DNA of 64,000 nucleotides from an uncultured Gemmatimonadota bacterium (lineage in GTDB: Bacteria; Gemmatimonadota; CAZMKB01; CAZNLH01). The stretch lies in contig CAZNLH010000005.1 of assembly GCA_964573995.1 (NCBI GenBank), positions 12,465-76,464 of the forward strand, in the 5' to 3' direction. A program made the position numbers and the translations under genes. The notes beneath the pieces were generated by a model that saw only the letters and a list, made by a program, of their open reading frames with translations, was not told where the DNA came from and ran no database searches. Shown one piece after another: positions 12,001 through 44,774 of the stretch (position 1 is its first letter; every line of letters begins with the position of its first letter).

Positions 12001-12110
12001 CGATTGATCTCTTCCACGATGGGCCGCAGTTTCTTGATCTCCCGCCCGTGCTTTGTACCCAAGATCTTTCTGGCTATGGTCTTCAACATACTCGGGTCCT
12101 CAAAGTACAA
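9045..12110 (-). CDS. secA: preprotein translocase ATPase SecA
   Basis: 1021 aa. SecA N-terminus [11 protein letters not shown] (real start probably the second Met at ~12089). DEAD-like motor motifs. C-terminal zinc finger [14 protein letters not shown]. Confidence 0.9.
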
Positions 12111-24990: not shown

Positions 24991-25011
24991 CTCGAACCGG
25001 TTGTCAATTCC

Positions 25012-25647: not shown

Positions 25648-25658
25648 ATTCCCCTCCG

Positions 25659-30427: not shown

Positions 30428-30442
30428 TCCCCGCTACTCCCC

Positions 30443-31615
30443 TCAGCAAGCGCCGTCAGCAGCCTCTTCAAATAGTTCGATCGTCTCCATCGCGTTGCTT
30501 TCCCACGAGAATGCCTGGGCCCTCTTGAGCCCCCTTTCCACCAAGTCCGCGGCTAGGGAAGGATCCGACAGCACGCTCCATATCGCATCGGCAAATTGTC
30601 CGGTGTTCAATGGATCGATCACCAGTGCCCCATCTCCGACAATTTCCGGTACCGCACACAAATTCGAAGCAATAACGGGCGTGCCGCACGCCATCGCCTC
30701 CAGTGGTGGTATCCCGAAGGTCTCCAGAGAAGACGGGTAGACAAACAGATCGGCGCACCTGTAAAAGCCGACCAGCTTGTCCCTCGGTAGAGAATCCAGG
30801 AAGAAAACACGCTCGGCTATCCCGAGTTCCCGGGCCGCTTCGCGCACCTTCTTACGATACCCCATGATACTGTTACCGATCATGATGACGTTGTGCGGAG
30901 CGTCGTGCATCCTGAGTACTTCCCTGAACGCCCTGAGGAAAGGTATCGGGTTCTTGTACGGCCTGATATCAGAAATCCACAACAGGTAATTTTCGTTGAA
31001 TCCCACCTCCCTCCCCAACAATGCGTGATAATCGGATTCCGGGCGTTCCATGTTGAATACTTCGTGATCCACGGATTCATAAATCACCCTTATCTTCTTG
31101 CCCGAAATTCCGCTCAACCTGATGATCTCACCCTTGGTAAAGTGGGAATTGGCGATAATGCGCACCGAACGACCGGCCTTCTTCCCAAACGAGAGCCGGT
31201 GATACAGCGAACGAAATAGCCCCACCTGCCTGGGAAAATAGAACTGTTGGAGTCCCGTGATCTTCCAGACCTCGCGTGCCTCCAATTTTCGGAATAGGGG
31301 GACAGGATTACAGGTATAATGGACATCTATACCAAAACGCCCGCAAAGCCCCGGGATACCGATCTCCTGGAAGGCCAGCCTCTGCAGCCTGCTACTCCCG
31401 AACGAGACGTCTACAAAGTGCAGGTTGCGCCCCGGCGAATGAATGCGTTCCAGATAGAAAGTCTTTAGCGACGGCGTCACGAAGACATAAAATTCCATGG
31501 CGGGCGCGAGGCCCGGGTATGTCCGCAACATGCTTACCCATATGCCAACAGCGCCGCTCTTCCCCGGAATCGTGGACAGGAGATCAACTCCCACGCTTAT
31601 TCCCTTTGATCGCAA
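30443..31615 (-). CDS. GT4-family glycosyltransferase
   Basis: 390 aa. C-terminal GT-B motifs ..LVYPSSLETFGIPPLEAMACGTPVIASN... Confidence 0.75.
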   Translation of the reverse strand: MRSKGISVGVDLLSTIPGKSGAVGIWVSMLRTYPGLAPAMEFYVFVTPSLKTFYLERIHSPGRNLHFVDVSFGSSRLQRLAFQEIGIPGLCGRFGIDVHYTCNPVPLFRKLEAREVWKITGLQQFYFPRQVGLFRSLYHRLSFGKKAGRSVRIIANSHFTKGEIIRLSGISGKKIRVIYESVDHEVFNMERPESDYHALLGREVGFNENYLLWISDIRPYKNPIPFLRAFREVLRMHDAPHNVIMIGNSIMGYRKKVREAARELGIAERVFFLDSLPRDKLVGFYRCADLFVYPSSLETFGIPPLEAMACGTPVIASNLCAVPEIVGDGALVIDPLNTGQFADAIWSVLSDPSLAADLVERGLKRAQAFSWESNAMETIELFEEAADGAC

Positions 31616-31634
31616 TACCCCCTACCCCCAAATA

Positions 31635-32366
31635 TCAGGTCTTCCTCGCTACCCAACAATAGTGTCCGGCGAACTTCAACTTTACGATATTTACCTCTTT
31701 CGCCGAAAGGCGTTTCAATTTCCCTACGATATTAAAGATGCGGTTCAACGGAGACTCGGATTCCCAGAATCTCATGCCTATCCATGATGAGATCCTTTCG
31801 TTGGAAACCCCCCTTATCAATTTTATAATGACGAGGCTTAAAAAATCGATCCCGGGGGCCAGAAGATTCAACCTGAAGCCGTTACGATCCAGCAAAGACT
31901 TCAGGCCGAAGGGGGTCATGTTGAAGGTGGACATCGCATGAAAGGGCTCCAGTTGAGCAACAGACCCGATAAAATAGCCTTCGCCCTTCGTAACCCTGCC
32001 GATTTCCGAAAGGCAGCGATCGGGCTCCTGTAGATGCTCCAGGACCTGCGCGGAAAAAACAATGTCAAATGACCGGTCAGGAAAAGGGAGGTTGATACCA
32101 TCATACACTACAATGGGAGAATCGCTCGACTCTATGTCGACACCGGTCCACAGCAACCCCAGGCCCTCCAGAACCCCCTTGTGTGGACAGGACGGTCCAC
32201 AACCAAAATCCAGGACACGAAACCGCGGGGGATCGTCCATTTCGCCACGAGAGACACCGTCCAGGGTTTCCTCCAAAATCGATATGGCGTCCCTCTGGCG
32301 ACAATCGGTTGAAAGGATGAACTCGCTGAAAAGCCTATAGAAGTCTGTATTGTCGACGGGTTTCAT
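31635..32366 (-). CDS. class I SAM-dependent methyltransferase
   Basis: 243 aa. Motif I VLDFGCGPS. Rossmann-like MT fold. Confidence 0.7.
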   Translation of the reverse strand: MKPVDNTDFYRLFSEFILSTDCRQRDAISILEETLDGVSRGEMDDPPRFRVLDFGCGPSCPHKGVLEGLGLLWTGVDIESSDSPIVVYDGINLPFPDRSFDIVFSAQVLEHLQEPDRCLSEIGRVTKGEGYFIGSVAQLEPFHAMSTFNMTPFGLKSLLDRNGFRLNLLAPGIDFLSLVIIKLIRGVSNERISSWIGMRFWESESPLNRIFNIVGKLKRLSAKEVNIVKLKFAGHYCWVARKT

Positions 32367-32399
32367 GGTCCTTGGCGCCGCCCCCTTCGAGCCTTCCGG

Positions 32400-33341
32400 T
32401 TACTTCGGACTAAACCCTTTCAAGAAAAATATCCTGAACGCCCCTGCAAGGAAGCCGGCGTCGGATTTAATCCTGACCATCCAATACGTCCTGGCTGCAG
32501 TCGACGACAAGAGATAACCAATATAATTCCTCACGAAATTGATTGTGATCTTCTTCAATGCGGAGGCGGCTATCCAGGTCTTCCCCAGGACGTCACATTC
32601 CGCGAGACACCGCGAAAGCCCATGCCGGTAGGCTTGGTCCAACACGGCACTCTCAAGGAAACGGCTCTCCTCCTGTTCATGGTAGACAACAATCGATGGG
32701 CTGTAACCGATAGTCAGTCCCCTTGCCTTCGCGCGAAGGCAAAGGTGATATTCCTCCTCGGCAAATTTGTTTTCTCCGACGCGACCGAACGAGGAATGAA
32801 ATCCTCCCAAGATATCGAATACCTTCCGCTTGCAAGAAAAGTTGCAGCCATGCACGCCGCTCCTCCGTCGCTTCAGGATAACAGATTCCGGTCCAAGGTC
32901 GAACGCTCCGGTTCCCTCAATGACCCTTGGGTCCACACCCGCAGGAACACCCAGGGGGCGCGACAGGGTCCTGCCGCCTATGATGTCGGCCCCAAGCGTC
33001 CTGTAGGCTCCGGCCATTTCGAGAAGCCAGTCCGGGGCCACGACGGCATCGTCATCCACGAAGGCGATTATCTCGCCCCGGCTTTCTTCTATCCCCCTGT
33101 TCCTGGCCCTGGACAGGCCGAGTTCGGCCTCGTAGACGTATTGAAAGACGATGTCGCCGCCCGCCTTTAGAGAGATGAAATCGAGCACCCTCTCCCTTGT
33201 GTCGTCCCGCGAGGAGTTGTCGACGGTGAGCACCTCAACCTCGCCCACCTCGTCGCTCACCTTGGCGCCGGCAATACTATCGAGACACCTCAGGACCCTC
33301 TCCTCCCCGTTGTATGTGCAGACAATGACGCTGATTACCAT
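32400..33341 (-). CDS. GT2-family glycosyltransferase
   Basis: 313 aa. N-terminus MVISVIVCTYNGEERVLRCLDSI, VDNSSRDDT, AFVDDDAV (DxD). Confidence 0.75.
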   Translation of the reverse strand: MVISVIVCTYNGEERVLRCLDSIAGAKVSDEVGEVEVLTVDNSSRDDTRERVLDFISLKAGGDIVFQYVYEAELGLSRARNRGIEESRGEIIAFVDDDAVVAPDWLLEMAGAYRTLGADIIGGRTLSRPLGVPAGVDPRVIEGTGAFDLGPESVILKRRRSGVHGCNFSCKRKVFDILGGFHSSFGRVGENKFAEEEYHLCLRAKARGLTIGYSPSIVVYHEQEESRFLESAVLDQAYRHGLSRCLAECDVLGKTWIAASALKKITINFVRNYIGYLLSSTAARTYWMVRIKSDAGFLAGAFRIFFLKGFSPK

Positions 33342-33347
33342 GCTAAT

Positions 33348-34172
33348 CTACCGCGCAGGCCTCCAGGCCCCCCTGCAGGCCGGCATGCACGCGCCCTGGT
33401 TCTTCTGCCTCGATGACTCACTCGCCGATGCAACGACCAAGTTGCCGAACGGGAGGTCCGAGGACTTCATAATCTTGCTCAAGACGAGGAAAGCCCATTG
33501 AATGGCCAGGCAGATGATCTTCACCGGGTAATACGTGTATAGATTCCCGCCCGCCCACCTGTCTATGGAACAACTCATCAACATTCCTATACTCGTCATG
33601 GTCGTCCCATACGGCATGATCGATAAGACACGAAGGCCATTTTCCCCCAAGATATGTTCCAGGCCCCACCTCGTAAACCTGAGATAATCGCAGGGACTCT
33701 CATGGTAGAACCAGACAAAAGGGGCCGTTAAGATCAGGACCCCTCCATCTTTCAGGACCCTTCTTGCCTCGGATAGAAATACCCCCGGGTCGGCAATGTG
33801 CTCGATGAGTTCTGATGCGAGAAGGGTGTCCACGCTGTTTGACTTGAACGGCAAGGCGAGCGCGTTGGCAACGATATCGGGCATCGGAGGTTGCCTTTGA
33901 GAATAGCCTATCATTTTCCTGACAATCTTCGGCATCCCGACGGGCCTTGCAAGGCTTACCCCCTTTCTGAAATCGGGGGTGAGATCGAGGCCGATATATC
34001 TATCTACACTATCCTCAAAGACATGGCGATATGGTTTGGAACCGCACCCTACATCCAGCAGTACCCCTGAGGAGAACCGTCCCGCCCTCCGGACCGCCTC
34101 CAGCAACAACCTGTAGGGAATCGCATCGGTCCTGAGAAACCTGTTTATTCTTCTTATGATATTTATCAGCAT
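33348..34172 (-). CDS. SAM-dependent methyltransferase
   Basis: 274 aa. Motif I LLDVGCGSKPY and downstream acidic motif II. Confidence 0.65.
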   Translation of the reverse strand: MLINIIRRINRFLRTDAIPYRLLLEAVRRAGRFSSGVLLDVGCGSKPYRHVFEDSVDRYIGLDLTPDFRKGVSLARPVGMPKIVRKMIGYSQRQPPMPDIVANALALPFKSNSVDTLLASELIEHIADPGVFLSEARRVLKDGGVLILTAPFVWFYHESPCDYLRFTRWGLEHILGENGLRVLSIMPYGTTMTSIGMLMSCSIDRWAGGNLYTYYPVKIICLAIQWAFLVLSKIMKSSDLPFGNLVVASASESSRQKNQGACMPACRGAWRPAR

Positions 34173-34211
34173 GATTGTCTTTTAAGGATCATGGTCCCCC
34201 TTTTTTTCGTC

Positions 34212-35630
34212 TTATGTGGATCGGCAGCCTTCAGTGCGCCAGAGCGCGTAACCTACAAGTGACCAGAAGATGATGTTCGGAATACCCACTTCAAGCGCAT
34301 AAGTGTAGAATAATAATAGTGGGAGGAGTAGAGTATACAAGATAATCGTAAAACCGATCTCCCGGTCGAGGGATCCCTCGTTCAACATCCGCCATCCGAT
34401 CCGCAATAATATGACGATGATCGCCAGTATCGCGACATAGCCGAGCAGCCCGTATTCCAACAGGATATGAGACAGGCTCCCCCTCCAGAACATAAACGCC
34501 CCTGCAGCCTTTATCACGCTCCCAGATATTCCCAATGTCTGGCTCGCGGTAGCGCTACCGCACCCAAAACCGGATAGAAGAGTGCTCGGTGAGCCTGAAA
34601 CCTTCGCGAAGGAGATTTGCAGGCTTGCCAGCCGCCCCACGTCATAATAACCGGTCTCGGGCAGGTAGCGGATGTTTTCGACATACTTTGAAGTCAAATC
34701 GGGGAACAGGACGTATGAGAGTGGGGTCTCCCCCTTGAAAAACATGGAATAAAGCGTCAAGAAACCCCACGCGGACAGGGCGCCAACCCCCAGGTACAAG
34801 GCCTTCTTTACAACAGTCCCGTGTTTCTTCAATACGATGATTGACAACGCCAAAACAGTCATAATTACGATAAAGACCTTCCCTTCGCAAAAAACCGAGG
34901 AGACGGCACTGACTCCAAGCGACACCACGAATGGCCACAAGTCATCATTCACGATAAAGCGGGCAGCCGCCCAACAGCATACTATGGTGTCCAAGAGGAT
35001 CAGTTCATGGGTGCCGAGGAGTCCGAAGGTACCGGCCAGGCTGTCTCCCGGCGGGATACCGGAGAGGTATTCGGGTATTTGAATAAGCAACTCGAAGATA
35101 ATCAGCGAAAGGCACACCCAGAAAAAGCCCCTGACAAACCTGTCGGGAATATCAAGGGCGTAAAATAGGTACAAGGCTATGATGACGTACTTGAACATTA
35201 CGAACCAGCCCCAGGCGATCGCGAGGAACGACTCGCCGAGCGTAAGCGCCCTTATGATACCGAACAGGGAGATAACGAAAATGGGGAAGGCTATCGCAGG
35301 GACTCGCTTCTTGTGAACCGTCACATTCAGGAAGATCTTCAGAATAGCCACACCGATTACGAAATGAGAGATCCACTGGACCTCCTTGGGAAGAAGGGCC
35401 TTACCGTTCCAATTCCATGCATAGAATAAATCGCCGATAAAGGCGATGCTTATCCAGATTACCTCCTTGTCCCAGAGGAAGAAGGCAAGGATACACAGGT
35501 CTATTCCCAGGACCAGCGCGAGGGATGGTCCATATAACGCCACAACGGCACAACAAAGCGCCAAGGCCACATAAACAGGCAATGCGGTCCGGCTCGGGAA
35601 ATAGTATCTCGACAGTTCAGTGACCTTCAT
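34212..35630 (-). CDS. Wzy-type polysaccharide polymerase / O-antigen-ligase-family membrane protein
   Basis: 472 aa, about 10-12 hydrophobic segments with a larger periplasmic loop mid-protein. Position between flippase and modification genes. Confidence 0.55.
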   Translation of the reverse strand: MKVTELSRYYFPSRTALPVYVALALCCAVVALYGPSLALVLGIDLCILAFFLWDKEVIWISIAFIGDLFYAWNWNGKALLPKEVQWISHFVIGVAILKIFLNVTVHKKRVPAIAFPIFVISLFGIIRALTLGESFLAIAWGWFVMFKYVIIALYLFYALDIPDRFVRGFFWVCLSLIIFELLIQIPEYLSGIPPGDSLAGTFGLLGTHELILLDTIVCCWAAARFIVNDDLWPFVVSLGVSAVSSVFCEGKVFIVIMTVLALSIIVLKKHGTVVKKALYLGVGALSAWGFLTLYSMFFKGETPLSYVLFPDLTSKYVENIRYLPETGYYDVGRLASLQISFAKVSGSPSTLLSGFGCGSATASQTLGISGSVIKAAGAFMFWRGSLSHILLEYGLLGYVAILAIIVILLRIGWRMLNEGSLDREIGFTIILYTLLLPLLLFYTYALEVGIPNIIFWSLVGYALWRTEGCRST

Positions 35631-35683
35631 CCCCTTGAATACTCCTTCCGAGTCTCACGATCGTCCATGATTCCGTCCCATGC

Positions 35684-37009
35684 CTACGTCTTTTCCACGG
35701 GTACACCGGCCCTCCCGCGTAGTAACAACAGCAATTCCGCCCTCTTTCCCCAGAGAGAGGACATGGAAAAGACTTGGTCCCACGAGATCCGCACGGTGTC
35801 TTTCAATCCCATGTAGCCCATGAACAGGACCGCCACCTCGGTGATGATGGTCGCGATGGCCGCCCCAACCATGGAAAAGATAGGAATCAGTAGAAAATTC
35901 AGGAGAAGATTGATAAAGGCGCCGATGGAGGCATTGAGCAGGTAACGATTCTGCCGGTTCACAGCGAGGAGACAGAAGCCCAACAGGCCGCTCGCGAACG
36001 CGATCGGCACGTCGAGTATCAATATCCTGAAGACGAGGCTGCTTGCCATGTAAGACTCCCCGTATACCGTCCGGATTATCAACGGCGCGAGCCATATCAG
36101 TACGGCCGCGATCGGCACCGATACCGCCACTGCCAGTGCCAGAGAATTAGAGATCCAGGTGGACAGTTTCTGCCTCGATTCCTCGAAATACCTCGCAAGG
36201 AGCGGGTACACGGCACGGTGATAGAGAAGGCCCATAGTCATCAATATGACGACAATCTTGCATGCTGCGCTGTAAAATCCGACAACCTCCTTTCCCTTCA
36301 TGAACCCCAGCATCACCATGTCGAAGTAGTAATAGACGGCGACAAGGAAGAAGGCGACCCCCATCGGCAGACTCTGCCTTAACATCTTTCCCCACAATTG
36401 AAAGTCGAAGCGAAGGCGGGGAATCCTGTCCTGCCGGGCCAAAAAGAACAAGAGGATCGAGGCTCCGAGGACCCCTGAAAAGGCCTGTATGATAGGGACC
36501 CTCAATATATCGGAGGGGAACCGCACAAGTCCTATCAATAACCCCACGTAGACCAGTCTCTGCACAACCTGTGCGGTCGAGATCACCTCCATCTTCTCAA
36601 TGCCCTGGAAAAACCACTCGATCGTAAACACAAAGGTGAAAAGTGAAAGGCCATAATACAGCAAGAGTATCCTGAGTTCTTCTTCCTTGAGTATCCACCA
36701 TGAAAAGATGGCGAGTAGGACGTAGGCCACGAGCGATGCCAACACCTTTATGGTGATGATATTGTCTACGTACCTGTGCATCTTGTCCCTGTACCGGGCC
36801 ACCTCCCTGGTCCCGAAGTGGTCAAGGCCGAGATTGACGAAGAACATGAAATAGGCCAATATCGCCTGGATAAAACCCAGTTCGCCGAATCGATCGGCTC
36901 CAAGGACCCTTGCAAGGTAAACGATCCCGACGAACCCCAGGCCACGGCAGACAACCTGGGCAGAGGAAAGGAAGAGGAAGTTCTTAAAGACGCGCTGGAC
37001 GGCAGACAT
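35684..37009 (-). CDS. Wzx-type oligosaccharide flippase (MOP/PST superfamily)
   Basis: 441 aa, ~12 TM. N-terminus MSAVQRVFKNFLFLSSAQVVCRGLGFVGIVYLARVLGADRFGELGF typical of polysaccharide-biosynthesis PST proteins. Confidence 0.7.
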   Translation of the reverse strand: MSAVQRVFKNFLFLSSAQVVCRGLGFVGIVYLARVLGADRFGELGFIQAILAYFMFFVNLGLDHFGTREVARYRDKMHRYVDNIITIKVLASLVAYVLLAIFSWWILKEEELRILLLYYGLSLFTFVFTIEWFFQGIEKMEVISTAQVVQRLVYVGLLIGLVRFPSDILRVPIIQAFSGVLGASILLFFLARQDRIPRLRFDFQLWGKMLRQSLPMGVAFFLVAVYYYFDMVMLGFMKGKEVVGFYSAACKIVVILMTMGLLYHRAVYPLLARYFEESRQKLSTWISNSLALAVAVSVPIAAVLIWLAPLIIRTVYGESYMASSLVFRILILDVPIAFASGLLGFCLLAVNRQNRYLLNASIGAFINLLLNFLLIPIFSMVGAAIATIITEVAVLFMGYMGLKDTVRISWDQVFSMSSLWGKRAELLLLLRGRAGVPVEKT

Positions 37010-37217
37010 TGGCAGTCTTGATCAGGATTATCTTCTTCTTTTCAATCATCTCGAACGCCAAGGGAGCAATTCCAAACTGGAAAGGGGACAACTGCACACA
37101 CCTGAATGGGGGCCCCTTTATAGCAATAGGGGGAAAGGGAGCAGGACAACTACCCCCTTCCCCCCTGTCGAGATACGTTACGCCACCCGGTCGACCCGGG
37201 ATTATACCAACCCCGTT

Positions 37218-38321
37218 CTAATTTCCGCGAACCCTGAAATTCTTGTCTATCTTGTTCAACTTATCAACGATTCCACCATACTCGAGTTCGCTGTACGGGA
37301 GCATGGCCGCGCCTGAGAAACCCTGCCTCCTCATCTCGTCCGCCTTGCTCGAGACCTTGTTGCGAATGTAGTCCCAGTAGGGATGGTCGAAGGCGTCGGC
37401 CGGTTCCGTCAACTTTCGATTACGTACGCAAAAGGCGAGGCAACTCACGACCGGCGGACCATCGAAGAATGAAATCGTCGAATCCTTCTTCACCGGCATC
37501 AGGGGACCAACGTGGCTTCCACGCATGAAACCGGCGACATAGTGCCCGATACCATAGGGGGCAAGGACTTCACCGGTTGCGGGAAATCCTCCCTGGACGC
37601 GAACGAGCATGACCGGATCGTCCTTGCCGGTATACTTCCCGGCAATATTGTGGAGCCTGGTCGTGCTGACCGATACGGCCAGTTCCCCGTCGGTCCTCGA
37701 TCGAATGGACTCCACGACAAACCTCTGGTTGTCCCTCAACAGGGCGGCCACATCGTACAAATCCTCTGGCGTGTTCAACTCGACCACGCGATCCCCCTCT
37801 GTATATTCCACGTCCATTATCGTGAACGTATAGCCCGCGCTCATCTTGGGGCTCAATATCAGGCCAGAGCAGAACATTGGATCGGCGAAGGCAAGGTAGA
37901 GTGGCAGGTTATAGGCACCTGGATCGGTCTTATCGGCCGCGAAGAAGAGGAAGGGCTCGTTGGGCCTGGCATCGAACTCCAGTTCCGCTACCGCCGGCCC
38001 CATCCCCTTTACGTTGCCCGAAAAGGAGTCTTTCAGCAGGTCCTGCCCCGCCCCGTACAGGCCCTGCTCCCTGGCAACCTCAGTCCCCTTGAGAAAGGCG
38101 TCCCAGGCCAGTTTGTGGACACCTTCGTCCCCAACCCCCCGGCTGTGGGTCATCAAGATCGCCACATCATCGCCCGTGCTGCCGATATAATAATCATCTA
38201 TCAAACCTCGCCCTGCCTCCTTGACGTGTGCCGCCACGGCCTCCTTTAACCTTCGGCTGGGGGCGATGTGCCCTCCTATGGAGCCAATATCCGCCTTGAT
38301 CACGCTGATAACAGTGTCCAT
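37218..38321 (-). CDS. fbp: bifunctional fructose-1,6-bisphosphate aldolase/phosphatase (archaeal-type class V FBPase)
   Basis: 367 aa, collinear with FBPA/P. N-terminus ISVIKADIGSIGGH. DDYYIGSTGDDVAILMTH. YGAGQDLLKDSFSGNVKGMGPAVAE. KTDPGAYNLPLY. IAGKYTGKDDPVMLVRVQGGFPATGEVLAPYG. MRGSHVGPLMPV. FDGPP. Confidence 0.8.
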   Translation of the reverse strand: MDTVISVIKADIGSIGGHIAPSRRLKEAVAAHVKEAGRGLIDDYYIGSTGDDVAILMTHSRGVGDEGVHKLAWDAFLKGTEVAREQGLYGAGQDLLKDSFSGNVKGMGPAVAELEFDARPNEPFLFFAADKTDPGAYNLPLYLAFADPMFCSGLILSPKMSAGYTFTIMDVEYTEGDRVVELNTPEDLYDVAALLRDNQRFVVESIRSRTDGELAVSVSTTRLHNIAGKYTGKDDPVMLVRVQGGFPATGEVLAPYGIGHYVAGFMRGSHVGPLMPVKKDSTISFFDGPPVVSCLAFCVRNRKLTEPADAFDHPYWDYIRNKVSSKADEMRRQGFSGAAMLPYSELEYGGIVDKLNKIDKNFRVRGN

Positions 38322-38353
38322 CTTACGGATCCCTCTCTTTCCGTTTTTTTGGA

Positions 38354-40762
38354 TCAGTCTCCGGGGAAACGGGCGACACTTTCGACATCAGTGGTGTCTC
38401 TATTGCGCCTCTTCCTCTTTCCATCTCCCCCGTAATAGTAATAATAGGAGTATGCATAGTGACCATATTTTCCATAATGACGCTTCATGTCGAGGCCGTT
38501 CATAACCACTCCGATTACCCTTGCTCCGACCTTCTCCAACCGATCTCTGGCCTCTTCGATCATCTCTGGCCGCGTCACCCCGGCCCTCACGACGAGGATG
38601 ACGCCCCCCACCTCGGTGCTGAGAATGGAGGCATCCGTCACTGGCAGGACCGGGGGGCTGTCCAGCAGGATGAAGTCATAGTCATTCTGTAAGCGTGTCA
38701 GGAGTTCCCTCATCCGAATCGAACTCAGGAGTTCGGAGGGGTTAGGAGGAATCGATCCGCACGGCAGGATCGACAGCCCGGAGACATTTGTGTCTCGAAC
38801 CGCTATATTAACCCCCGCCTTCCCGGTGAGGACGTCTGTCAGGCCGGGTTCCTTGCGTTGATAGAAGATGTGATTGATGACCGGTTTCCTCAGGTCACAA
38901 TCTCCGATCAGGACCCTCTGGCCCTGCTGCGCCAGGGTAATGGCCAGGTTGGCGGTCGTGGTGGATTTTCCCTCGCCCTGGTTCGGGCTGGTGAGGAGAA
39001 TGGTCTTCAGTTCCCTGGAAACATTGAAATATTGAATGTTCGTGCGGATATTCCGGTAAGACTCCGCGATGGGTGATCGCAGTTCGTGATGGGTCAGCAA
39101 CTTCGATTCCAGGTCGAGCCATACGGTCTCCGGGCTGCCATATCTCGACGCAGTCGATTGTACTTCCATGGCGGGAATCGAGCCGAGGAGTGGGAGTTCA
39201 AGGTCTTTCAAATCCTCCCAGGACTTGATGCTGTCGTCCAGGTACTCTATGCCGATGCTCGACGAGATGCCCAGGGACAGCCCGAGGATAAGGGCCAATA
39301 TCAAGTTCAGCAATATCCTGGGGCGGATCGGCTTCTCTGGGAGGATGGCCGGGTCGATGATCCGGATATCGCCTATCTCCGAGGCCTCGTTGATCTGGGC
39401 CTCCTTGTAACGAGTAAGCAACATGGTATATATTTGATCGTTGACCTTAGCCTTCCTCTCCAGCCCTGCGAGTTCGACCTCCTTGGCAGGGAGTTTCTCC
39501 AGGTCCTTCTGAATGGAGGCCACCGTCTGGCTCAGCGCCTTTATCTGCTCGTTAAGGGCATTCAGATAGTCCCTCGCGGTGTTCTGCAGGTTTCCTTCAA
39601 CCAGCCTGATCTGGTCATTCAGCACCTGTAGGTCTGGATACGAATCGGTGAACCGGCTGGAGAGATCCTTCCTGCGGATCTGTAGTTCGATCAACTGTTT
39701 CTTCAGCGATTGGATCGTCTTGTTGGTGATTAGGGATGGAAATGCCGTGACCTGCTGAAAGGCCGCGGAGTCCATCACGGCCGTTGTACTGCCCACGGAA
39801 CCGGGATGGTCCTGCCTGATGAGTTTAAGGATGCCGTCTCGCTCTGCTCGAATCCTCTCCAGTTCCGCCTGAAAGTCGGCCAATTTCTCAATCCTGTTCT
39901 GCGACTCCACGTCGAGGATGACGACCTGGTTCTTTTCCTTGAATTCCTTGAGATTTTCCTCGGACTCCGCGACTTGCTTGGAAGCGACCTTCAACTGGTC
40001 GTCGAGGAATTCCCTCACGTTCCTTGCCTCCAGGCGCTTCGTCGACAGGCCCTGGTCTACGAATATCTCGGCAAGGGTGTTTGTTATGTAACGGGCCTCA
40101 TCCTGGGTATTGGCCGAAATCGTCAACTCGACAATGCGCGTACCTCGAATCGGTTCCGCCTCGACATGATCCATAAAATTCCGGACCGTCGTGGGAAAGT
40201 CCAGGACCCGAAACTTGATGTCCTGGGAAAAGTTCCTGAACTCTGGAGATATCCGGAAAGAGAGCCCGGGAATGCGGACCTCGGCCCCCACCCTGCTCTC
40301 CACCACGAGTGGACTGTCCAGGTGCTTCATGCTATAATGCCCATCCTGCGTGAAATGAACGAGATAATCTCCCATCAAGGCACCATCCCCGACAGTCAAA
40401 GAAGAGAAGATGTCTCTCCTGCTCTCCCTCGGCTCCAGGATCTCCACGGATAGGCCGAGCCGGGAGACCACCTTTTCCGCGAGCGTTCGGCTCTTCAGAA
40501 CCTCCAACTCCGTCTCGATAAACTCGGTCTGCCCGTTGAGACTGATGTTTCGCATACCAAGGTATAAGGGACTCTCCGAGGCAGGGGGCTCGATCCTGAG
40601 GGTTGTGGTGGCCTTGTAAACAGGCGTGACAAGCAGGGAATAGGCGATCGAGAGAGAAAGAACCAGGAGGGTGACAACGGATATCAACCGCCTATGGTTA
40701 AATAGAATCGAATAATAATCTCTCAGGTGAAGCGATTCATCCCTTCTCTTCTTGAGACTCAA
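38354..40762 (-). CDS. wzc: polysaccharide co-polymerase / BY-kinase tyrosine autokinase (Wzc/EpsB-type)
   Basis: 802 aa. N-terminal Wzz domain with two TM segments flanking a long coiled-coil periplasmic region. C-terminal kinase domain with Walker A SPNQGEGKSTTTANLA, Walker A' DCDLRKP, Walker B FILLDSPPV, and terminal tyrosine cluster YAYSYYYYYGGDG. Confidence 0.85.
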   Translation of the reverse strand: MSLKKRRDESLHLRDYYSILFNHRRLISVVTLLVLSLSIAYSLLVTPVYKATTTLRIEPPASESPLYLGMRNISLNGQTEFIETELEVLKSRTLAEKVVSRLGLSVEILEPRESRRDIFSSLTVGDGALMGDYLVHFTQDGHYSMKHLDSPLVVESRVGAEVRIPGLSFRISPEFRNFSQDIKFRVLDFPTTVRNFMDHVEAEPIRGTRIVELTISANTQDEARYITNTLAEIFVDQGLSTKRLEARNVREFLDDQLKVASKQVAESEENLKEFKEKNQVVILDVESQNRIEKLADFQAELERIRAERDGILKLIRQDHPGSVGSTTAVMDSAAFQQVTAFPSLITNKTIQSLKKQLIELQIRRKDLSSRFTDSYPDLQVLNDQIRLVEGNLQNTARDYLNALNEQIKALSQTVASIQKDLEKLPAKEVELAGLERKAKVNDQIYTMLLTRYKEAQINEASEIGDIRIIDPAILPEKPIRPRILLNLILALILGLSLGISSSIGIEYLDDSIKSWEDLKDLELPLLGSIPAMEVQSTASRYGSPETVWLDLESKLLTHHELRSPIAESYRNIRTNIQYFNVSRELKTILLTSPNQGEGKSTTTANLAITLAQQGQRVLIGDCDLRKPVINHIFYQRKEPGLTDVLTGKAGVNIAVRDTNVSGLSILPCGSIPPNPSELLSSIRMRELLTRLQNDYDFILLDSPPVLPVTDASILSTEVGGVILVVRAGVTRPEMIEEARDRLEKVGARVIGVVMNGLDMKRHYGKYGHYAYSYYYYYGGDGKRKRRNRDTTDVESVARFPGD

Positions 40763-40947: not shown

Positions 40948-41652
40948 TCATCTAACGATTACGCTCAGGACCAGTGCGGCAGCAGAGACCATCGAGGCTA
41001 TGATCGTCCAGTCTCTGACCGTAATTCCCCCCTTCTTCCCGACGACTATCTGGTCCCCGGATTTGATCCCGAACTTCTCTATGGGCTGATCCCCTTCGAG
41101 TTCCTTTTTCAGGTTCTTGCTCAGGATTTCCCCCCCCCGAATCACCTTTACCTTATCGATATCTCCATTCTCGTCCACCCCACCAGCCATTGAAAGGACT
41201 TCAGAGAGGCTCAATGTGGGATCAACGGGGTAGAGGCCCGGCTTGTCAACCTCGCCCATCACGTTTATCCTGAAGAGCGGGACCACCGTGATGTTCAGAT
41301 CCTTCAGGTACTTGGAGTATTTTTTTATCAAGAGTATCTTGAGGCTATCGGTAGAGATTTCTTTCACACTGACTGACCCCAATAAAGGAAGCGTCAGTTT
41401 CCCCCCTTCATCGACCGAGTAATCGCCACTAAGGTCTCCCCCTCTCCATATCTTGATCCTTACCATGTCGCCGGGTTTGAGAAATGACATATCCCCTCCG
41501 GCAGGCACGGCCCCGAGAGGAATATCAACTGTCGTAACGGTAAAGAGGACCATTGCCCAGGTCATCAACAGGACCTGTTTAAAACGTGACAACCCTTGCC
41601 GGCGGCAAGTAGGATCGTGATGGAAGTGATAGGTCATCTTGCTTTCTATCAT
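40948..41652 (-). CDS. periplasmic polysaccharide export protein (short Wza/EpsE/GumB-type, SLBB-like)
   Basis: 234 aa. Signal/anchor. ..GDMVRIKIWRGGDLSGDYSVDEGGKLTLPLLGSVSV.. export-protein core. Sits first in the EPS gene string. Confidence 0.6.
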   Translation of the reverse strand: MIESKMTYHFHHDPTCRRQGLSRFKQVLLMTWAMVLFTVTTVDIPLGAVPAGGDMSFLKPGDMVRIKIWRGGDLSGDYSVDEGGKLTLPLLGSVSVKEISTDSLKILLIKKYSKYLKDLNITVVPLFRINVMGEVDKPGLYPVDPTLSLSEVLSMAGGVDENGDIDKVKVIRGGEILSKNLKKELEGDQPIEKFGIKSGDQIVVGKKGGITVRDWTIIASMVSAAALVLSVIVR

Positions 41653-41815
41653 TGCACCAGGTTATGGCTGCTTGATGGCAGGGCAAACCGAGTGATTTCC
41701 CTGGTTTATCGAAAAACAAGCCCCGTCCGGATCTAAACCCGATGATCGACAATGAATGTATCCGGGGCACCCCTCCATGTCAAGAAAAATTGAAAGTGGA
41801 ACTCAGCACCGAGGA
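41653..41815 (-). promoter_or_regulatory. putative promoter/leader region upstream of wza, first gene of the EPS gene string
   Basis: 163-bp non-coding gap between lolA stop and wza start, lower GC than flanks. No motif verified. Confidence 0.25.
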
Positions 41816-42499
41816 TCAACGGTTCCACGGGGCGTCGAAGAAATCCGCATCCGGTGGTGGTGTAAATAAAAAAAGTTTATCCGGCAGCGAGTCGACCCTT
41901 TGCCATCCGAAGAAAGAATAGGTTACCACGTTCCCGGCCATGTCTTTATAAGATAGCCTCCTTGAGAGGAGGTCCTCCTTCCCCACCCACAGGTCGAGTG
42001 ACTGAAAGCGTGGCTTATTACTACCCGCCCTAAGGGAAAATGAGAAGCGATAGCAGGAGACTCCGGAGGCCTTCTCCTCACCGGACAGTCGGACGGAATA
42101 ATCGCTTAAAAGCATCTCCAGCGTTCGCTCCGAAAGTATTCCACCTATGTTCCCCTCGAGGGGGGTCCTATATACCTGCGGCCTCTCCCGGTCGGTCAGC
42201 AGCATCCAGTAAGATGAGCCGTCACAAACGAGCAACTCTCCCACCGGCTCTTCGTATTCCAGGCGAAGGAGATCAGGATGCCGGTAGTATATCCTGCCGC
42301 GATAGTTCCTCGTCTCCTGCATAAGGTTCATATCGACGTCCTGCTTGAATTCCCCTTGCAACGCGCCGGGTCGTGCTGCCGTTTCGGTAACCCGGTGAAG
42401 GATCTTCACTGTGTCCGGTCCCTTCGCATCGGCACGTCCGCGCGTGACAACCATCAGCAACACGCCGACCTCGAGCATAAAATAAAGTCGTCTTTTCAC
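41816..42499 (-). CDS. lolA: periplasmic lipoprotein carrier LolA-like
   Basis: 227 aa. Signal peptide. GEFKQ.., ..RPDLLRLEYEEPVGELLVCDGSSYWMLL.. and C-terminal FLFTPPPDADF parallel LolA motifs. ftsK-lolA adjacency as in many proteobacteria. Confidence 0.6.
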   Translation of the reverse strand: MKRRLYFMLEVGVLLMVVTRGRADAKGPDTVKILHRVTETAARPGALQGEFKQDVDMNLMQETRNYRGRIYYRHPDLLRLEYEEPVGELLVCDGSSYWMLLTDRERPQVYRTPLEGNIGGILSERTLEMLLSDYSVRLSGEEKASGVSCYRFSFSLRAGSNKPRFQSLDLWVGKEDLLSRRLSYKDMAGNVVTYSFFGWQRVDSLPDKLFLFTPPPDADFFDAPWNR

Positions 42500-42542
42500 C
42501 TATTATCTTACGCCCCGCATCGTTGTCAGGAGACCGGGTGTT

Positions 42543-44774
42543 TCATTCGATCCCCTTGTCCTTCAAGTATGACTCGTCCACCAGCACCTGCCTTGCCTTG
42601 CTGCCGTTGGGAGGGCCGACTATCGATGCCTCTTCGAGTTGGTCCACTATCCTGGCCGCACGTGTATAGCCTATCTTCAATTTCCTCTGTAAGAGAGAGG
42701 TGGATCCATGTCCATACAACACCACCAGTCTGGCTGCCTGGTTGAAGAGTTCGTCCTGGTCCTCACTGCACGGGTCCTTATCATCCCCCATGCGCAAGGG
42801 CCCGACGGCCGTCTCACCCCCCCCTTCAGGCTGCCACACCCCGACTTGAGACCTGACATAATCCACCACCCTCTCCAGTTCAGGCTGTGAAATGAACGCC
42901 CCGTGGATCCTAATCGGGGTAGAACTGCCTCCAGGCATATAGAGCATGTCCCCCTTACCGAGTAGTTTCTCCGCGCCGTTGGTGTCGAGAATTGTGCGGG
43001 AGTCCGTCTTTGTCGCCACGCGGAACGAGATCCTGGAAGGAAAGTTCGCCTTGATCAGGCCGGTAATTACATCGACGGAGGGCCTCTGAGTCGCCAGAAT
43101 CAGGTGTATGCCTACACCTCGCGCCATTTGCGCCAATCTCGTCAGGGGGTCCTCCACATCGTTCTGCATCGTCAGGATCAGATCGGCCAACTCGTCGATA
43201 ATTATGACGAGAAAGGGCAACCTCTTCTCGGCGCCCCCCTCTTCCGCGGATACGCGTCTGTTATATTCCGGGATGCTCCTCACCCCCTTGGCCGCCAGCA
43301 GGCTGTAACGTTCCTCCATCTCCCGGACCGCCCACCTGAGCGCCTTTACGGCCTCTTTCGGGTCTGTAACAACGGGGACTAGCAGGTGCGGAATACCGTT
43401 GTATATCCCAAGTTCCAGCATCTTCGGGTCGATCATGATCAGCGTGAGATCATCCGGGGAGAAGTGATAGAGGAAGCCTGTCACCAGGCAGTGGATATTG
43501 ACCGACTTCCCGGACCCCGTGGCCCCTGCAATCAGGAGATGGGGCATCCCTGTCAGGTCGGCCACGACCGGTTTCCCCACGATGTCCTTGCCGAGGGGCA
43601 ACGGAAGGGTAGATCCGCTTTTCAAGAAACTCTCGTCGCCCAGGATCTCCCGGATAAAGACCTTTTCAGGCCTAGAGTTCGGAATCTCGATCCCAACAGC
43701 GCCCTTTCCGGGAATCGGGGCCACTACGCGGATCTTGTAAGCCTTCATTGCCATTGCAAGGTCATCGGAAAGGCTCTGGACCTGACTGACCTTGATCCCA
43801 GGCGCCGGTTTCAACTCAAACATTGTAATGACCGGCCCCGAGACAATATCAACCACTTCCGCACGTATGTTGAAATCCCCCAGGGTATCAATCAGGATAC
43901 GGGCAAGGTCGCCATTTTCTTTGTCAGCCCTGGCGGCAGGCTCCCTCTTGGGTGAAGTGAGCAATGACAGGGGAGGCAGGTTGTAGCCACCGGCCATATC
44001 CACCGGCCTCGAACCATCCTCCCTCTCCTCGATGCAGGGCGCATCCTGCAGCCTACCCCCACCCCTCACCACCCGTACCGACCGACCCCCGCCCCCCCCC
44101 TCAATCTTCCGCTTAGTCCCAGCCGCGGAAGCCCTCCGGTGGCCCAGTCGCTCCTTTACCCTCGTCTCAGTCTCCTCCCTCCGACGCCTCTTCCGTTCCA
44201 TCCTCCAATCCTCCAAGGCGACCAATAGGCGTCTTACAGCCGTACCCCCCTTGTTGAATGCCATGCCCAGCCATCCGAGTAAGATGGAAGTCAACGGCCC
44301 TATCCGTATCCCTGTCGCCAGGAGGATCACAAGGAGCCCTGTTGCATAAATAACGAGAAGGGAGCCCAACATGCCTATTTGATCCACGAGCCAACGTGAA
44401 AGATCCCCTGCCAGCCAGCCCGTGTCGGCCGGATTATTCGTCCGAATGAAACCGGCCGCTGAATAAAGGAGAGGGATGAAAAATGCCAGGACAGTCAGCC
44501 GTATGGGAAGGACCGGGGAACGCTCGAGGAAACGGTCTATCCCCCAGGCAACCACGATGAAGGGTGCCAGGGCAGCCCCCCACCCCAAGGAAGACACAAG
44601 TCGATTCCCGAGATACTCACCCACAGGGCCGGCCAGGTTGGCCGATCCCACCACCCCGGCAAATATGCCTTCGATCCACTGGGGAGGCATCAGGCTCAGC
44701 CCCAGGAGCAGGCCGAAGGTGATCAGGAGCAAGCCCAGGACTTCCTGCCTGTTTTCATCAGTGATACCGAACAT
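42543..44774 (-). CDS. ftsK: DNA translocase FtsK/SpoIIIE
   Basis: 743 aa. N-terminal 4-5 TM, Pro/Gly/Arg-rich linker, motor domain with Walker A AGATGSGKSV and Walker B LVIIIDELADL, C-terminal gamma winged-helix. Confidence 0.9.
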   Translation of the reverse strand: MFGITDENRQEVLGLLLITFGLLLGLSLMPPQWIEGIFAGVVGSANLAGPVGEYLGNRLVSSLGWGAALAPFIVVAWGIDRFLERSPVLPIRLTVLAFFIPLLYSAAGFIRTNNPADTGWLAGDLSRWLVDQIGMLGSLLVIYATGLLVILLATGIRIGPLTSILLGWLGMAFNKGGTAVRRLLVALEDWRMERKRRRREETETRVKERLGHRRASAAGTKRKIEGGGGGRSVRVVRGGGRLQDAPCIEEREDGSRPVDMAGGYNLPPLSLLTSPKREPAARADKENGDLARILIDTLGDFNIRAEVVDIVSGPVITMFELKPAPGIKVSQVQSLSDDLAMAMKAYKIRVVAPIPGKGAVGIEIPNSRPEKVFIREILGDESFLKSGSTLPLPLGKDIVGKPVVADLTGMPHLLIAGATGSGKSVNIHCLVTGFLYHFSPDDLTLIMIDPKMLELGIYNGIPHLLVPVVTDPKEAVKALRWAVREMEERYSLLAAKGVRSIPEYNRRVSAEEGGAEKRLPFLVIIIDELADLILTMQNDVEDPLTRLAQMARGVGIHLILATQRPSVDVITGLIKANFPSRISFRVATKTDSRTILDTNGAEKLLGKGDMLYMPGGSSTPIRIHGAFISQPELERVVDYVRSQVGVWQPEGGGETAVGPLRMGDDKDPCSEDQDELFNQAARLVVLYGHGSTSLLQRKLKIGYTRAARIVDQLEEASIVGPPNGSKARQVLVDESYLKDKGIE
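44092..44100. repeat. C9/G9 homopolymer tract inside ftsK linker coding region (preceded by C5)
   Basis: Directly visible: ..cgacccccg ccccccccc tcaatc.. It encodes the GGGGG run of the FtsK linker. Confidence 0.9.

What the first reader, a model, noticed from the sequence alone, without database searches (positions are those of the whole stretch)
37218..38321. Archaeal-type FBP aldolase/phosphatase embedded between wzc and wzx in the EPS operon
The 367-aa protein is collinear with the bifunctional fructose-1,6-bisphosphate aldolase/phosphatase of Thermoproteus and Sulfolobus (IKADIGS..GH, YGAGQDLLKDSFSGNVKGMGP, IAGKYTGKDDPVMLVRVQGGFPATGEV, MRGSHVGPLMPV, FDGPP). This is a gluconeogenic pacemaker enzyme with a restricted bacterial distribution. 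It lies on the same strand only 32 bp downstream of the BY-kinase gene and 208 bp upstream of wzx, in the middle of an export and polymerisation module. It may be co-expressed with polysaccharide export to supply hexose phosphates. It may instead be a housekeeping gene trapped in the locus.
Basis: partly seen in the sequence, partly recalled or inferred. Interest (0 to 1): 0.5.

Follow-up and report, generated by a model that had tools for sequence, protein, structure and literature searches.

The report
Gluconeogenic FBP aldolase/phosphatase behind wza-wzc

Summary
[quoted passage not shown] It is 48% identical to the solved ST0318 enzyme, and the active-site motifs are intact.

The context is only partly as described. 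Seven of nine related lineages have lolA-wza-wzc-fbp, with a 32-43 bp wzc-fbp gap. An invariant TTGACA-N17-TACATT promoter lies after lolA. No promoter-like site lies within 300 nt upstream of fbp. A GC-rich hairpin follows fbp in at least five lineages. So fbp is probably the last gene of a wza-wzc-fbp transcript.

The fbp-wzx adjacency exists only in this genome. The block from wzx to the 413-aa ORF (28153-37009) replaces a regulator segment found in the sister genome, and it lies beyond the hairpin.

Two lineages lack wza-wzc but keep fbp behind the same promoter. None of 160 more distant fbp loci has Wza or Wzx homologues within the sequence fetched or a Wzc homologue beside fbp.

FBP A/P is widespread in environmental bacteria, so its distribution is not restricted. 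My verdict is a housekeeping enzyme in a lineage-specific operon. An adaptive link to polysaccharide supply is possible but not shown. Interest is low to moderate.

The parts
41755..41783 (-). Sigma-70-type promoter TTGACA-N17-TACATT in the lolA-wza intergenic region; proposed start of the wza-wzc-fbp transcript
   Evidence: Promoter scan scored it 10 of 12. The CTTGACA and TACATT hexamers are invariant in 7 related genomes while the spacer varies (alignment A2). In L082 the same promoter lies 88 nt upstream of fbp itself.
40948..41652 (-). wza-like outer-membrane polysaccharide export protein (234 aa ORF; JGI aa)
   Evidence: Matches PF02563 Poly_export plus SLBB domains. The gene sits at the same position in L167, L168, L169 and L171.
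38354..40762 (-). wzc: polysaccharide co-polymerase fused to a BY-kinase, with a C-terminal tyrosine cluster
   Evidence: Has Wzz, GNVR and AAA_31 domains; TIGR01007 scores 208.5 bits against a cutoff of 108. The C-terminus carries YGKYGHYAYSYYYYYGG. It is 64-69% identical to the gene upstream of fbp in L085, L086, L167, L168, L169 and L171.
38322..38353 (-). 32-bp wzc-fbp spacer carrying the fbp ribosome-binding site (AGAGGG)
   Evidence: Sequence read. The equivalent gaps in relatives are 35-43 bp and carry AGGAGG-type sites. No promoter-like site lies within 300 nt upstream of fbp in any genome that has wzc.
37218..38321 (-). [quoted passage not shown]
   Evidence: PF01950 scores 520 bits. 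NF041126 scores 539.7 against a cutoff of 520. PDB 3r1m (ST0318) scores 346 bits, at 48% identity. Of 145 columns that are at least 98% invariant in the family, 140 are kept.
37128..37166 (-). GC-rich hairpin 51 nt after the fbp stop codon; terminator-like, with a weak T-tail
   Evidence: Folds at -34.1 kcal/mol, z = -3.1. GGGGGAA...TTCCCCC-type hairpins lie at the same place in L082, L084 and L169; L085 has a different G/C-rich hairpin there. L082 and L085 have canonical T-runs.
28153..37009 (-). Block found only in this genome: wzx, a 10-TM protein (Wzy candidate), 2 methyltransferases, GT2, GT1, a FemAB-like protein and a 413-aa unknown
   Evidence: Domain annotation; TM count. The block is absent from all relatives. 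L084, L167, L168 and L171 have a DUF3943-like gene, a sigma-54 activator and, in all but L171, a response regulator there instead. The window has no homologue of those genes. GC content is 0.51-0.56, against 0.56-0.59 in the flanks.
23419..27916 (-). Conserved downstream flank of the polysaccharide locus: SDR epimerase, HddA-like GHMP kinase, GmhA-like SIS protein and a Wzi-like protein
   Evidence: Annotation. DNA and protein synteny with L084. The same genes follow the regulators in L167-L171.
41816..44774 (-). Conserved housekeeping flank: ftsK (42543-44774) and lolA (41816-42499)
   Evidence: Annotation. Synteny from DHQ synthase through accC, ftsK and lolA holds across the whole clade.

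Best explanation
[quoted passage not shown] This is the one-way gluconeogenic enzyme that condenses triose phosphates and hydrolyses the product to fructose-6-phosphate. The organism is an uncultured bacterium; its nearest named relatives by SecA are Ca. Glassbacteria, Gemmatimonadota, Latescibacterota and Zixibacteria.

In this lineage fbp is the last gene of a three-gene unit, wza-wzc-fbp. The unit would be transcribed from a conserved sigma-70-type promoter just after lolA and would end at a hairpin after fbp. The enzyme would therefore be made together with the polysaccharide export and chain-length machinery. Its function is still general gluconeogenesis and does not depend on that machinery.

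The wzx, glycosyltransferase and methyltransferase genes downstream are a separate block found only in this genome. It was swapped in beyond the hairpin.

Shown: the enzyme's identity, the gene order across relatives, and the conserved promoter and hairpin sequences. Inferred: co-transcription and the housekeeping role.
For: Identity: PF01950 scores 520 bits. The equivalog NF041126 scores 539.7 against a cutoff of 520. ST0318 and the T. neutrophilus FBPA/P structures score 346 and 334 bits. Residues D11, H18, D51/D52, D94, K131, Y230, K233, D234, D235 and Y348 (= ST0318 Tyr347) are conserved, and 140 of 145 family-invariant columns are kept.

Operon: wzc lies directly upstream of fbp in 7 of 9 distinct related lineages. 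These are the window, L084, L085, L086/L171, L167, L168 and L169, with gaps of 32-43 bp. The promoter hexamers are invariant in 7 genomes while the spacer varies. There is no promoter-like site within 300 nt upstream of fbp and no terminator-like site between the promoter and fbp. A hairpin follows fbp in at least five lineages.

Independence from export: L082/L083 has lolA-promoter-fbp with no wza or wzc. L172 is the sister of L169 (bootstrap 100). It carries a 3-kb deletion that removed wza-wzc, left remnants, and kept fbp.

No general link: none of 160 loci with 70-78% identical fbp has a Wza or Wzx homologue within the sequence fetched, up to 10 kb each side, or a Wzc homologue beside fbp. 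The single weak Wzc-like hit, in L057, lies about 5 kb from fbp.

The downstream block is found only here. The sister genome L171 (bootstrap 100) and L084, L167, L168 and L169 have regulators instead.
Against: No transcript data exist. The hairpin in the window lacks a proper T-run, so read-through into wzx is possible. The 185-bp wza-wzc spacer carries two weak promoter-like sites, so the transcript may start there instead.

The whole 20-kb region is syntenic across the clade. Conservation of wzc-fbp therefore does not by itself show selection for the linkage.

Whether this is the only FBPase in the genome could not be checked. Only 64 kb is available, and it holds no other FBPase family.

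In L172 fbp carries a frameshift near codon 295. If that frameshift is real, fbp may be dispensable there.
Confidence: 0.65

Rival explanations
1. Adaptive supply-demand coupling. Placing fbp in the wza-wzc operon is selected for, because it raises gluconeogenic flux to hexose phosphates, and hence to sugar nucleotides, whenever the export machinery is made. This would suit an organism that builds its polysaccharide from non-sugar carbon.
For: The tight wzc-fbp spacing and shared promoter persist in 7 lineages whose FtsK is only 61-65% identical to the window's. The locus also carries sugar-nucleotide genes: a GmhA-like and an HddA-like gene, SDR epimerases and RmlD. In unrelated lineages a GalE-like epimerase gene sits directly upstream of fbp in at least 13 loci. 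From my own knowledge, expressing E. coli fbp in Lactococcus lactis raised exopolysaccharide production on fructose (Looijesteijn et al. 1999, a reference listed in PMC1182390).
Against: The surrounding housekeeping genes are just as syntenic, so the linkage is conserved no better than the background. Two lineages lack wza-wzc and kept fbp on the same promoter. None of the 160 more distant fbp loci shows the linkage. A full-text search for FBP aldolase/phosphatase together with exopolysaccharide found no papers, though that phrase probably does not match the usual slash spelling.
Confidence: 0.25
2. Neutral adjacency with independent expression. fbp has its own promoter, not of the consensus type, inside the 3' end of wzc. 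It is transcribed separately, and the gene order is a historical accident with no regulatory consequence.
For: The consensus scan detects only sigma-70-like sites (tool description). The tyrosine-codon-rich 3' end of wzc is AT-rich and could hold weak -10 elements. A housekeeping enzyme would be expected to be expressed steadily.
Against: No sigma-70-like site lies within 300 nt upstream of fbp in any of the 7 genomes with wzc. By contrast, the conserved promoter is found at once in L082. The gap is only 32-43 bp and holds only a ribosome-binding site. No terminator-like hairpin lies between wzc and fbp.
Confidence: 0.15
3. Moonlighting or changed function. The FBP A/P homologue acts as the phosphatase for the tyrosine-phosphorylated Wzc, taking the place of the Wzb gene that normally accompanies wzc.
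For: No LMW-PTP motif and no phosphatase domain was found among the window's main ORFs, and none is listed in the relatives' loci. fbp sits where a phosphatase gene would be expected. Coxiella CinF, a homologue of this family, has lost FBP activity and works as a protein phosphatase (PMC8740755).
Against: The protein passes the curated equivalog cutoff. It keeps 140 of 145 family-invariant columns, including the GKDDP lysine that, from my own knowledge, the aldolase step needs. It is no more divergent than the copy in L082, a genome that lacks wzc. CinF is only about 39% identical to ST0318, whereas this protein is 48% identical to ST0318 and 72-78% identical to ordinary bacterial enzymes. In the same study ST0318 itself showed no activity on the phosphoprotein tested or on pNPP.
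Confidence: 0.03

Closest known systems
Archaeal FBP aldolase/phosphatase (Sulfurisphaera tokodaii ST0318, PDB 3R1M/1UMG; Thermoproteus neutrophilus FBPA/P, PDB 3T2B-3T2G)
   Same: The two align over their full length: 346 and 334 bits, with 48% identity to ST0318. The KADIGS, GDD, GQDLL, ADKT, GKY.GKDDP, RGSH, FDGPP and ELEY motifs are shared, including the equivalent of ST0318 Tyr347.
   Different: The host is bacterial and the sample is environmental; nothing indicates thermophily. The clade replaces a Glu that is otherwise at least 98% invariant with Ala at residue 118, and also has T4V and N280D. The gene is operon-linked to wza-wzc, which is not described for the archaeal genes.
Bacterial FBP aldolase/phosphatase orthologues, for example Syntrophorhabdus aromaticivorans and many Thermodesulfobacteriota, Zixibacteria and Ignavibacteria MAGs
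   Same: They are 72-78% identical and of the same length and family. The review PMC12525153 states that the bifunctional enzyme is fixed in several bacterial phyla.
   Different: None of 160 such loci has a Wza or Wzx homologue within the sequence fetched, up to 10 kb each side, or a Wzc homologue beside fbp. The wza-wzc-fbp arrangement is confined to one small uncultured clade.
wza-wzb-wzc export operons of Wzx/Wzy-dependent capsule and exopolysaccharide loci (E. coli group 1 capsule type; own knowledge)
   Same: A Wza-like exporter is followed by a Wzc co-polymerase/BY-kinase with a C-terminal tyrosine cluster, and a Wzx flippase and glycosyltransferases lie nearby.
   Different: No Wzb phosphatase gene is present, and a central-metabolism gene follows wzc instead. 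Wza is short (about 205-234 aa). In most relatives the flippase and polymerase genes are not next to the export pair.
Coxiella burnetii CinF (Cbu0513), an FBPA/P-derived protein phosphatase (PMC8740755)
   Same: It belongs to the same protein family, and the Tyr347-equivalent residue is needed for its activity.
   Different: CinF is about 39% identical to ST0318 and has lost FBP activity. The window protein scores above the equivalog cutoff and looks like a standard enzyme.

Membership tests
FBP aldolase/phosphatase (class V FBPase; PF01950, NCBIfam NF041126) | Full-length match to the family profile above the curated threshold | tested here: met
   PF01950 scores 520.1 bits against a cutoff of 25 and covers profile positions 3-360 of 361. 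The NF041126 equivalog scores 539.7 bits against a cutoff of 520.
FBP aldolase/phosphatase (class V FBPase; PF01950, NCBIfam NF041126) | Sequence homology to experimentally solved FBPA/P enzymes | tested here: met
   3r1m/1umg (ST0318) gives E = 2.5e-102 and 3t2b (T. neutrophilus) gives E = 1e-98, both across the whole length. Identity to ST0318 is 48%.
FBP aldolase/phosphatase (class V FBPase; PF01950, NCBIfam NF041126) | Active-site residues: acidic residues in the KADIGS, GDD, GQD and ADK motifs; Tyr and Lys of GKY.GKDDP; the C-terminal Tyr (ST0318 Tyr347). Their roles are from my own knowledge, except Tyr347, which is from PMC8740755. | tested here: met
   D11, H18, D51, D52, D94, K131, Y230, K233, D234, D235 and Y348 are all present. 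Of 145 columns that are at least 98% invariant in 161 relatives, 140 are kept in all clade members.
FBP aldolase/phosphatase (class V FBPase; PF01950, NCBIfam NF041126) | Both aldolase and phosphatase activity on FBP and triose phosphates | not testable with these tools
   This needs an enzyme assay.
FBP aldolase/phosphatase (class V FBPase; PF01950, NCBIfam NF041126) | Acts as the organism's gluconeogenic FBPase, with no class I-IV FBPase elsewhere | not testable with these tools
   Only 64 kb is available. Among the main ORFs of 150 aa or more scanned against Pfam, there is no PF00316, PF03320, PF06874 or PF00459 hit. The rest of the genome could not be read.
Wza-Wzb-Wzc polysaccharide export operon (Wzx/Wzy-dependent pathway) | Outer-membrane exporter Wza (Poly_export plus SLBB) | tested here: met
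   Window 40948-41652 matches PF02563, PF10531 and PF22461.
Wza-Wzb-Wzc polysaccharide export operon (Wzx/Wzy-dependent pathway) | Wzc co-polymerase with a BY-kinase domain and a C-terminal tyrosine cluster | tested here: met
   It has Wzz, GNVR and AAA_31 domains, and TIGR01007 scores 208.5 against a cutoff of 108. The tail YGKYGHYAYSYYYYYGG is present. The E. coli Wzc equivalog is not reached (303.9 against 1068), so this is a distant member.
Wza-Wzb-Wzc polysaccharide export operon (Wzx/Wzy-dependent pathway) | Cognate phosphotyrosine phosphatase (Wzb LMW-PTP or PHP type) encoded beside wzc | tested here: not met
   No phosphatase domain was found among the window's main ORFs. There is no LMW-PTP P-loop motif in any open frame of at least 90 codons. 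None is listed in the relatives' loci. It may be encoded elsewhere in the genome.
Wza-Wzb-Wzc polysaccharide export operon (Wzx/Wzy-dependent pathway) | Wzx flippase and Wzy polymerase | tested here: inconclusive
   Wzx is present: PF01943 scores 156.8 bits at 35684-37009. The Wzy candidate at 34212-35630 has 10 hydrophobic segments but no Pfam or NCBIfam hit.
CinF-like protein phosphatases derived from FBPA/P | Divergent sequence with loss of FBP aldolase/phosphatase activity | tested here: not met
   Sequence divergence was tested and not found; activity cannot be tested here. The protein is above the FBPA/P equivalog cutoff. It is 72-78% identical to ordinary bacterial enzymes, and the invariant columns are kept. 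CinF is about 39% identical to ST0318.

The most novel reading that the evidence does not exclude
The FBP aldolase/phosphatase encoded directly after wzc also serves as the phosphatase that recycles the tyrosine-phosphorylated BY-kinase, filling the place of the missing Wzb. That would tie the export machinery directly to a central-metabolism enzyme. The only precedent is Coxiella CinF, a member of this family that became a protein phosphatase. A milder version is that co-transcription itself is an adaptive coupling of gluconeogenic flux to polysaccharide export; I rate that version at about 0.25.
Probability: 0.03. Interest if true: 0.8.

Novelty: new member of a known kind. Interest (0 to 1): 0.28.

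Why it matters
The enzyme itself adds nothing new. FBP aldolase/phosphatase is well characterised and common in uncultured anaerobic and sediment bacteria.

What is new is a small, well-supported case of operon evolution. A committed gluconeogenic step became the distal gene of a polysaccharide-export operon in one uncultured lineage. It shares a conserved promoter with that operon. In two lineages that lack the export genes, fbp still sits behind the same promoter.

If the coupling proved to be adaptive, it would be an example of central carbon flux being wired transcriptionally to envelope polysaccharide output. Otherwise it is a warning against reading function from neighbourhood in polysaccharide loci, whose variable blocks are swapped around fixed housekeeping anchors.

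Tried and rejected
None of the closest relatives came from these scans. They were reached through the search for homologous proteins followed by the look-up of encoding contigs, first with FBP and then with FtsK as the query.

2. Whether wza-wzc was inserted into a lolA-fbp arrangement or deleted from L082 could not be settled. The FBP NJ tree nests L082 inside the clade. The FtsK tree puts it at the base, and the support values there are unclear after re-rooting. The outgroups L173 and L174 have neither fbp nor wza-wzc after ftsK. Only the L172 deletion is clearly derived.

3. I first assumed the organism was Thermodesulfobacteriota or Syntrophorhabdaceae, because the best named FBP hits are. 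I rejected this. SecA and FtsK place it nearest Ca. Glassbacteria (68%), then Latescibacterota, Zixibacteria and Gemmatimonadota.

4. The Rfam scan of the window found nothing.

5. Literature searches for FBPA/P together with exopolysaccharide found nothing. Looijesteijn et al. 1999 is not held in the library.

6. Residue numbers I recalled for the catalytic Lys and Tyr did not match the numbering derived from the alignment. I therefore give window numbering and motifs, and cite only Tyr347 from a paper.

7. I did not run structure prediction or fold search. At 48% identity to solved structures they would add nothing.
Full report
**Observation**

Window 37218-38321 holds a 367-codon ORF on the minus strand.
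- It matches Pfam PF01950 (FBPase_3) end to end, at 520 bits.
- The best solved relatives are Sulfurisphaera tokodaii ST0318 (3r1m/1umg, 346 bits) and the Thermoproteus neutrophilus enzyme (3t2b, 334 bits).

I aligned the protein with ST0318 and 160 relatives translated from fetched loci. Identity to ST0318 is 48%. Residues D11, H18, D51/D52, D94, K131, Y230, K233, D234, D235 and Y348 are all in place. Y348 corresponds to ST0318 Tyr347, which PMC8740755 reports as needed for both activities. Of 145 columns that are at least 98% invariant in the 161 sequences outside the clade, 140 are kept in every clade member.

**Neighbours**

All neighbouring genes are on the minus strand. In order of transcription they are:
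- ftsK (42543-44774) and lolA (41816-42499).
- A Wza-like exporter (40948-41652).
- A Wzc co-polymerase/BY-kinase (38354-40762). TIGR01007 scores 208.5 against a cutoff of 108, and the tyrosine cluster YGKYGHYAYSYYYYYGG is present.
- fbp.
- A Wzx flippase (35684-37009).
- A 10-TM protein with no family hit, two methyltransferases, GT2, GT1, a FemAB-like protein and a 413-aa unknown.
- An SDR epimerase, an HddA-like kinase, a GmhA-like isomerase, a Wzi-like protein, RmlD, more transferases and an initiating phosphotransferase.

**The organism, and how common the enzyme is**

The best named FBP hits are Syntrophorhabdaceae, at 76-78%. SecA and FtsK instead place the organism in a small unnamed clade. 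Its nearest named relatives are Ca. Glassbacteria (68% SecA), then Latescibacterota, Zixibacteria and Gemmatimonadota.

FBP A/P is extremely conserved and widespread. A 2025 review states that the enzyme is fixed in several bacterial phyla (PMC12525153). 'Restricted bacterial distribution' is therefore not a reason for interest.

**Is the neighbourhood conserved?**

In 160 loci whose FBP is 70-78% identical (80 GTDB species, 80 metagenome contigs), tblastn with the window's Wza, Wzc, Wzx, FtsK and LolA found none of them next to fbp. The single weak Wzc-like hit, in L057, lies about 5 kb away.

The close clade is different. I reached nine distinct lineages through the closest FBP homologues (84-87% identical) and FtsK homologues (61-65% identical; the next hits drop to 46%).
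- Seven lineages have wzc directly upstream of fbp: the window, L084, L085, L086/L171, L167, L168 and L169/L170. The gaps are 32-43 bp and contain only a ribosome-binding site.
- The four long contigs L167, L168, L169 and L171 all read ...accB-T2SSE-accC-ftsK-lolA-wza-wzc-fbp-(DUF3943-like gene on the other strand, absent in L169)-sigma-54 activator-(response regulator, not called in L171)-epimerase-(GHMP)-SIS-Wzi.
- Two lineages lack wza-wzc. L082/L083 reads ftsK-lolA-fbp.
- L172 is the sister of L169 (bootstrap 100). It has a 3-kb deletion that leaves the first 160 bp or so of wza and the last 100 bp or so of wzc, and it keeps fbp.

**Transcription signals**

A TTGACA-N17-TACATT site lies in the lolA-wza spacer (41783-41755, scoring 10 of 12). 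Aligning the equivalent region from seven genomes shows CTTGACA and TACATT invariant while the 17-nt spacer varies freely. This is the pattern expected of a real promoter (alignment A2). In L082 the same promoter sits 88 nt upstream of fbp itself.

No sigma-70-like site lies within 300 nt upstream of fbp in any genome that has wzc. No terminator-like site lies between the promoter and fbp, apart from one weak 5-bp stem inside fbp.

A 17-bp GC-rich stem starts 51 nt after the fbp stop codon (37166-37128, -34.1 kcal/mol, z = -3.1). Related GGGGGAA...TTCCCCC hairpins occupy the same place in L082, L084 and L169. L085 has a different G/C-rich hairpin there. L082 and L085 have canonical T-runs.

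The most economical reading is one transcript, wza-wzc-fbp, that ends after fbp. This is an inference, because no RNA data were available.

**The wzx side**

The window's sister genome L171 (bootstrap 100), and also L084, L167 and L168, carry a DUF3943-like gene and a sigma-54 activator between fbp and the conserved epimerase-GHMP-SIS-Wzi block. All of these except L171 also carry a response regulator there. L169 has the activator and regulator without the DUF3943-like gene.

The window has no homologue of those genes anywhere in its 64 kb. Instead it has the 8.9-kb block from wzx to the 413-aa unknown. The block's GC content is slightly lower, 0.51-0.56 against 0.56-0.59. So 'fbp between wzc and wzx' describes this genome only. 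The wzx block is a swapped-in section downstream of the hairpin.

**Interpretation**

The enzyme is under strong purifying selection, including at residues used for the aldolase step. It is no more divergent in genomes with wzc than in L082, which lacks it. It was retained twice where the export genes are absent.

All of this fits a housekeeping gluconeogenic enzyme that happens to be co-transcribed with wza-wzc in this lineage. I rate that explanation at 0.65.

An adaptive supply-demand coupling cannot be excluded (about 0.25). However, the whole 20-kb region is equally syntenic, so conservation of the linkage is not special.

Independent expression from an unrecognised internal promoter is possible (about 0.15).

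The boldest reading is that the protein doubles as the phosphatase for Wzc. It rests on two things: no Wzb gene is visible, and Coxiella CinF shows that the family can evolve protein phosphatase activity. The standard sequence of this protein argues strongly against it (about 0.03).

**What could not be done**

Three things could not be done:
- The rest of the genome could not be searched for other FBPases, FBP aldolases or a Wzb.
- No transcript evidence could be examined.
- It remains unresolved whether wza-wzc was inserted between an older fbp promoter and fbp, or was deleted in L082.

**Verdict**

This is a correct observation of an ordinary enzyme in an uncommon, lineage-specific operon context. 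It is a new member of a known kind, and interest is low to moderate.

Noticed in passing
L172:12338-13990 (relative of the window; compare L169:13053-16367): A 3-kb deletion has removed wza-wzc, leaving about 160 bp of the wza 5' end and about 100 bp of the wzc 3' end. The retained fbp changes reading frame near codon 295 and was called as 329 aa. This is either a real pseudogene or an assembly error.
   Followed up: partly
L028:9033-10004, and the equivalent positions in L030, L045, L049, L059, L065, L068, L071, L112, L116, L122, L123 and L150: In at least 13 loci from other lineages (Deferrimicrobiaceae-like, 'delta proteobacterium' and Gemmatimonadota MAGs), a GalE-like SDR epimerase gene ends 10-40 bp upstream of fbp on the same strand. 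In L028 it scores 159 bits against TIGR01179, below the cutoff. This is a second, independent linkage between fbp and sugar-nucleotide genes.
   Followed up: partly
window 37968-37970 (fbp codon 118); also codons 4 and 280: All ten clade sequences have Ala at residue 118, where at least 98% of 161 other FBP A/P sequences have Glu. There are also clade-wide T4V and N280D/E changes. The substitutions occur with and without wzc, and their meaning is unknown.
   Followed up: no
window 46122-47303 (minus strand), between accB (47308-47805) and accC (44789-46138): A T2SSE/PilT-family ATPase gene is wedged between the biotin carboxyl carrier and biotin carboxylase genes. The arrangement is conserved in every clade member and, in looser form, in the outgroup L174.
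   Followed up: no
window 9045-12110 (SecA) compared with 37218-38321 (fbp): SecA and FtsK place the organism near Ca. Glassbacteria, Gemmatimonadota, Latescibacterota and Zixibacteria. The closest named FBP sequences are Syntrophorhabdaceae and Thermodesulfobacteriota (77-78%). This reflects either lateral transfer of fbp or simply its extreme conservation.
   Followed up: partly
window 25012-27916 (minus strand): A GmhA-like SIS protein, an HddA-like GHMP kinase and a 427-aa SDR epimerase whose Rossmann domain is split by an insertion lie together. All score far below the equivalog cutoffs. They form a conserved trio in the clade and suggest a heptose or other unusual sugar in the polysaccharide.
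   Followed up: partly
window 34212-35630, 28153-29394, 6477-7499, 7948-8967 and 63404-63949: Five ORFs of 181-472 aa have no Pfam hit. 34212-35630 and 28153-29394 also have no NCBIfam hit. 34212-35630 has 10 hydrophobic segments and is a Wzy candidate.
   Followed up: partly
L082:11281-11973 and L085:2227-2943: A roughly 230-aa multi-pass membrane protein with no family hit follows fbp in two relatives; the two copies are 56% identical to each other. It is absent from the window. Together with the DUF3943-like gene, it marks the spot after the fbp hairpin as a hotspot of gene turnover.
   Followed up: partly
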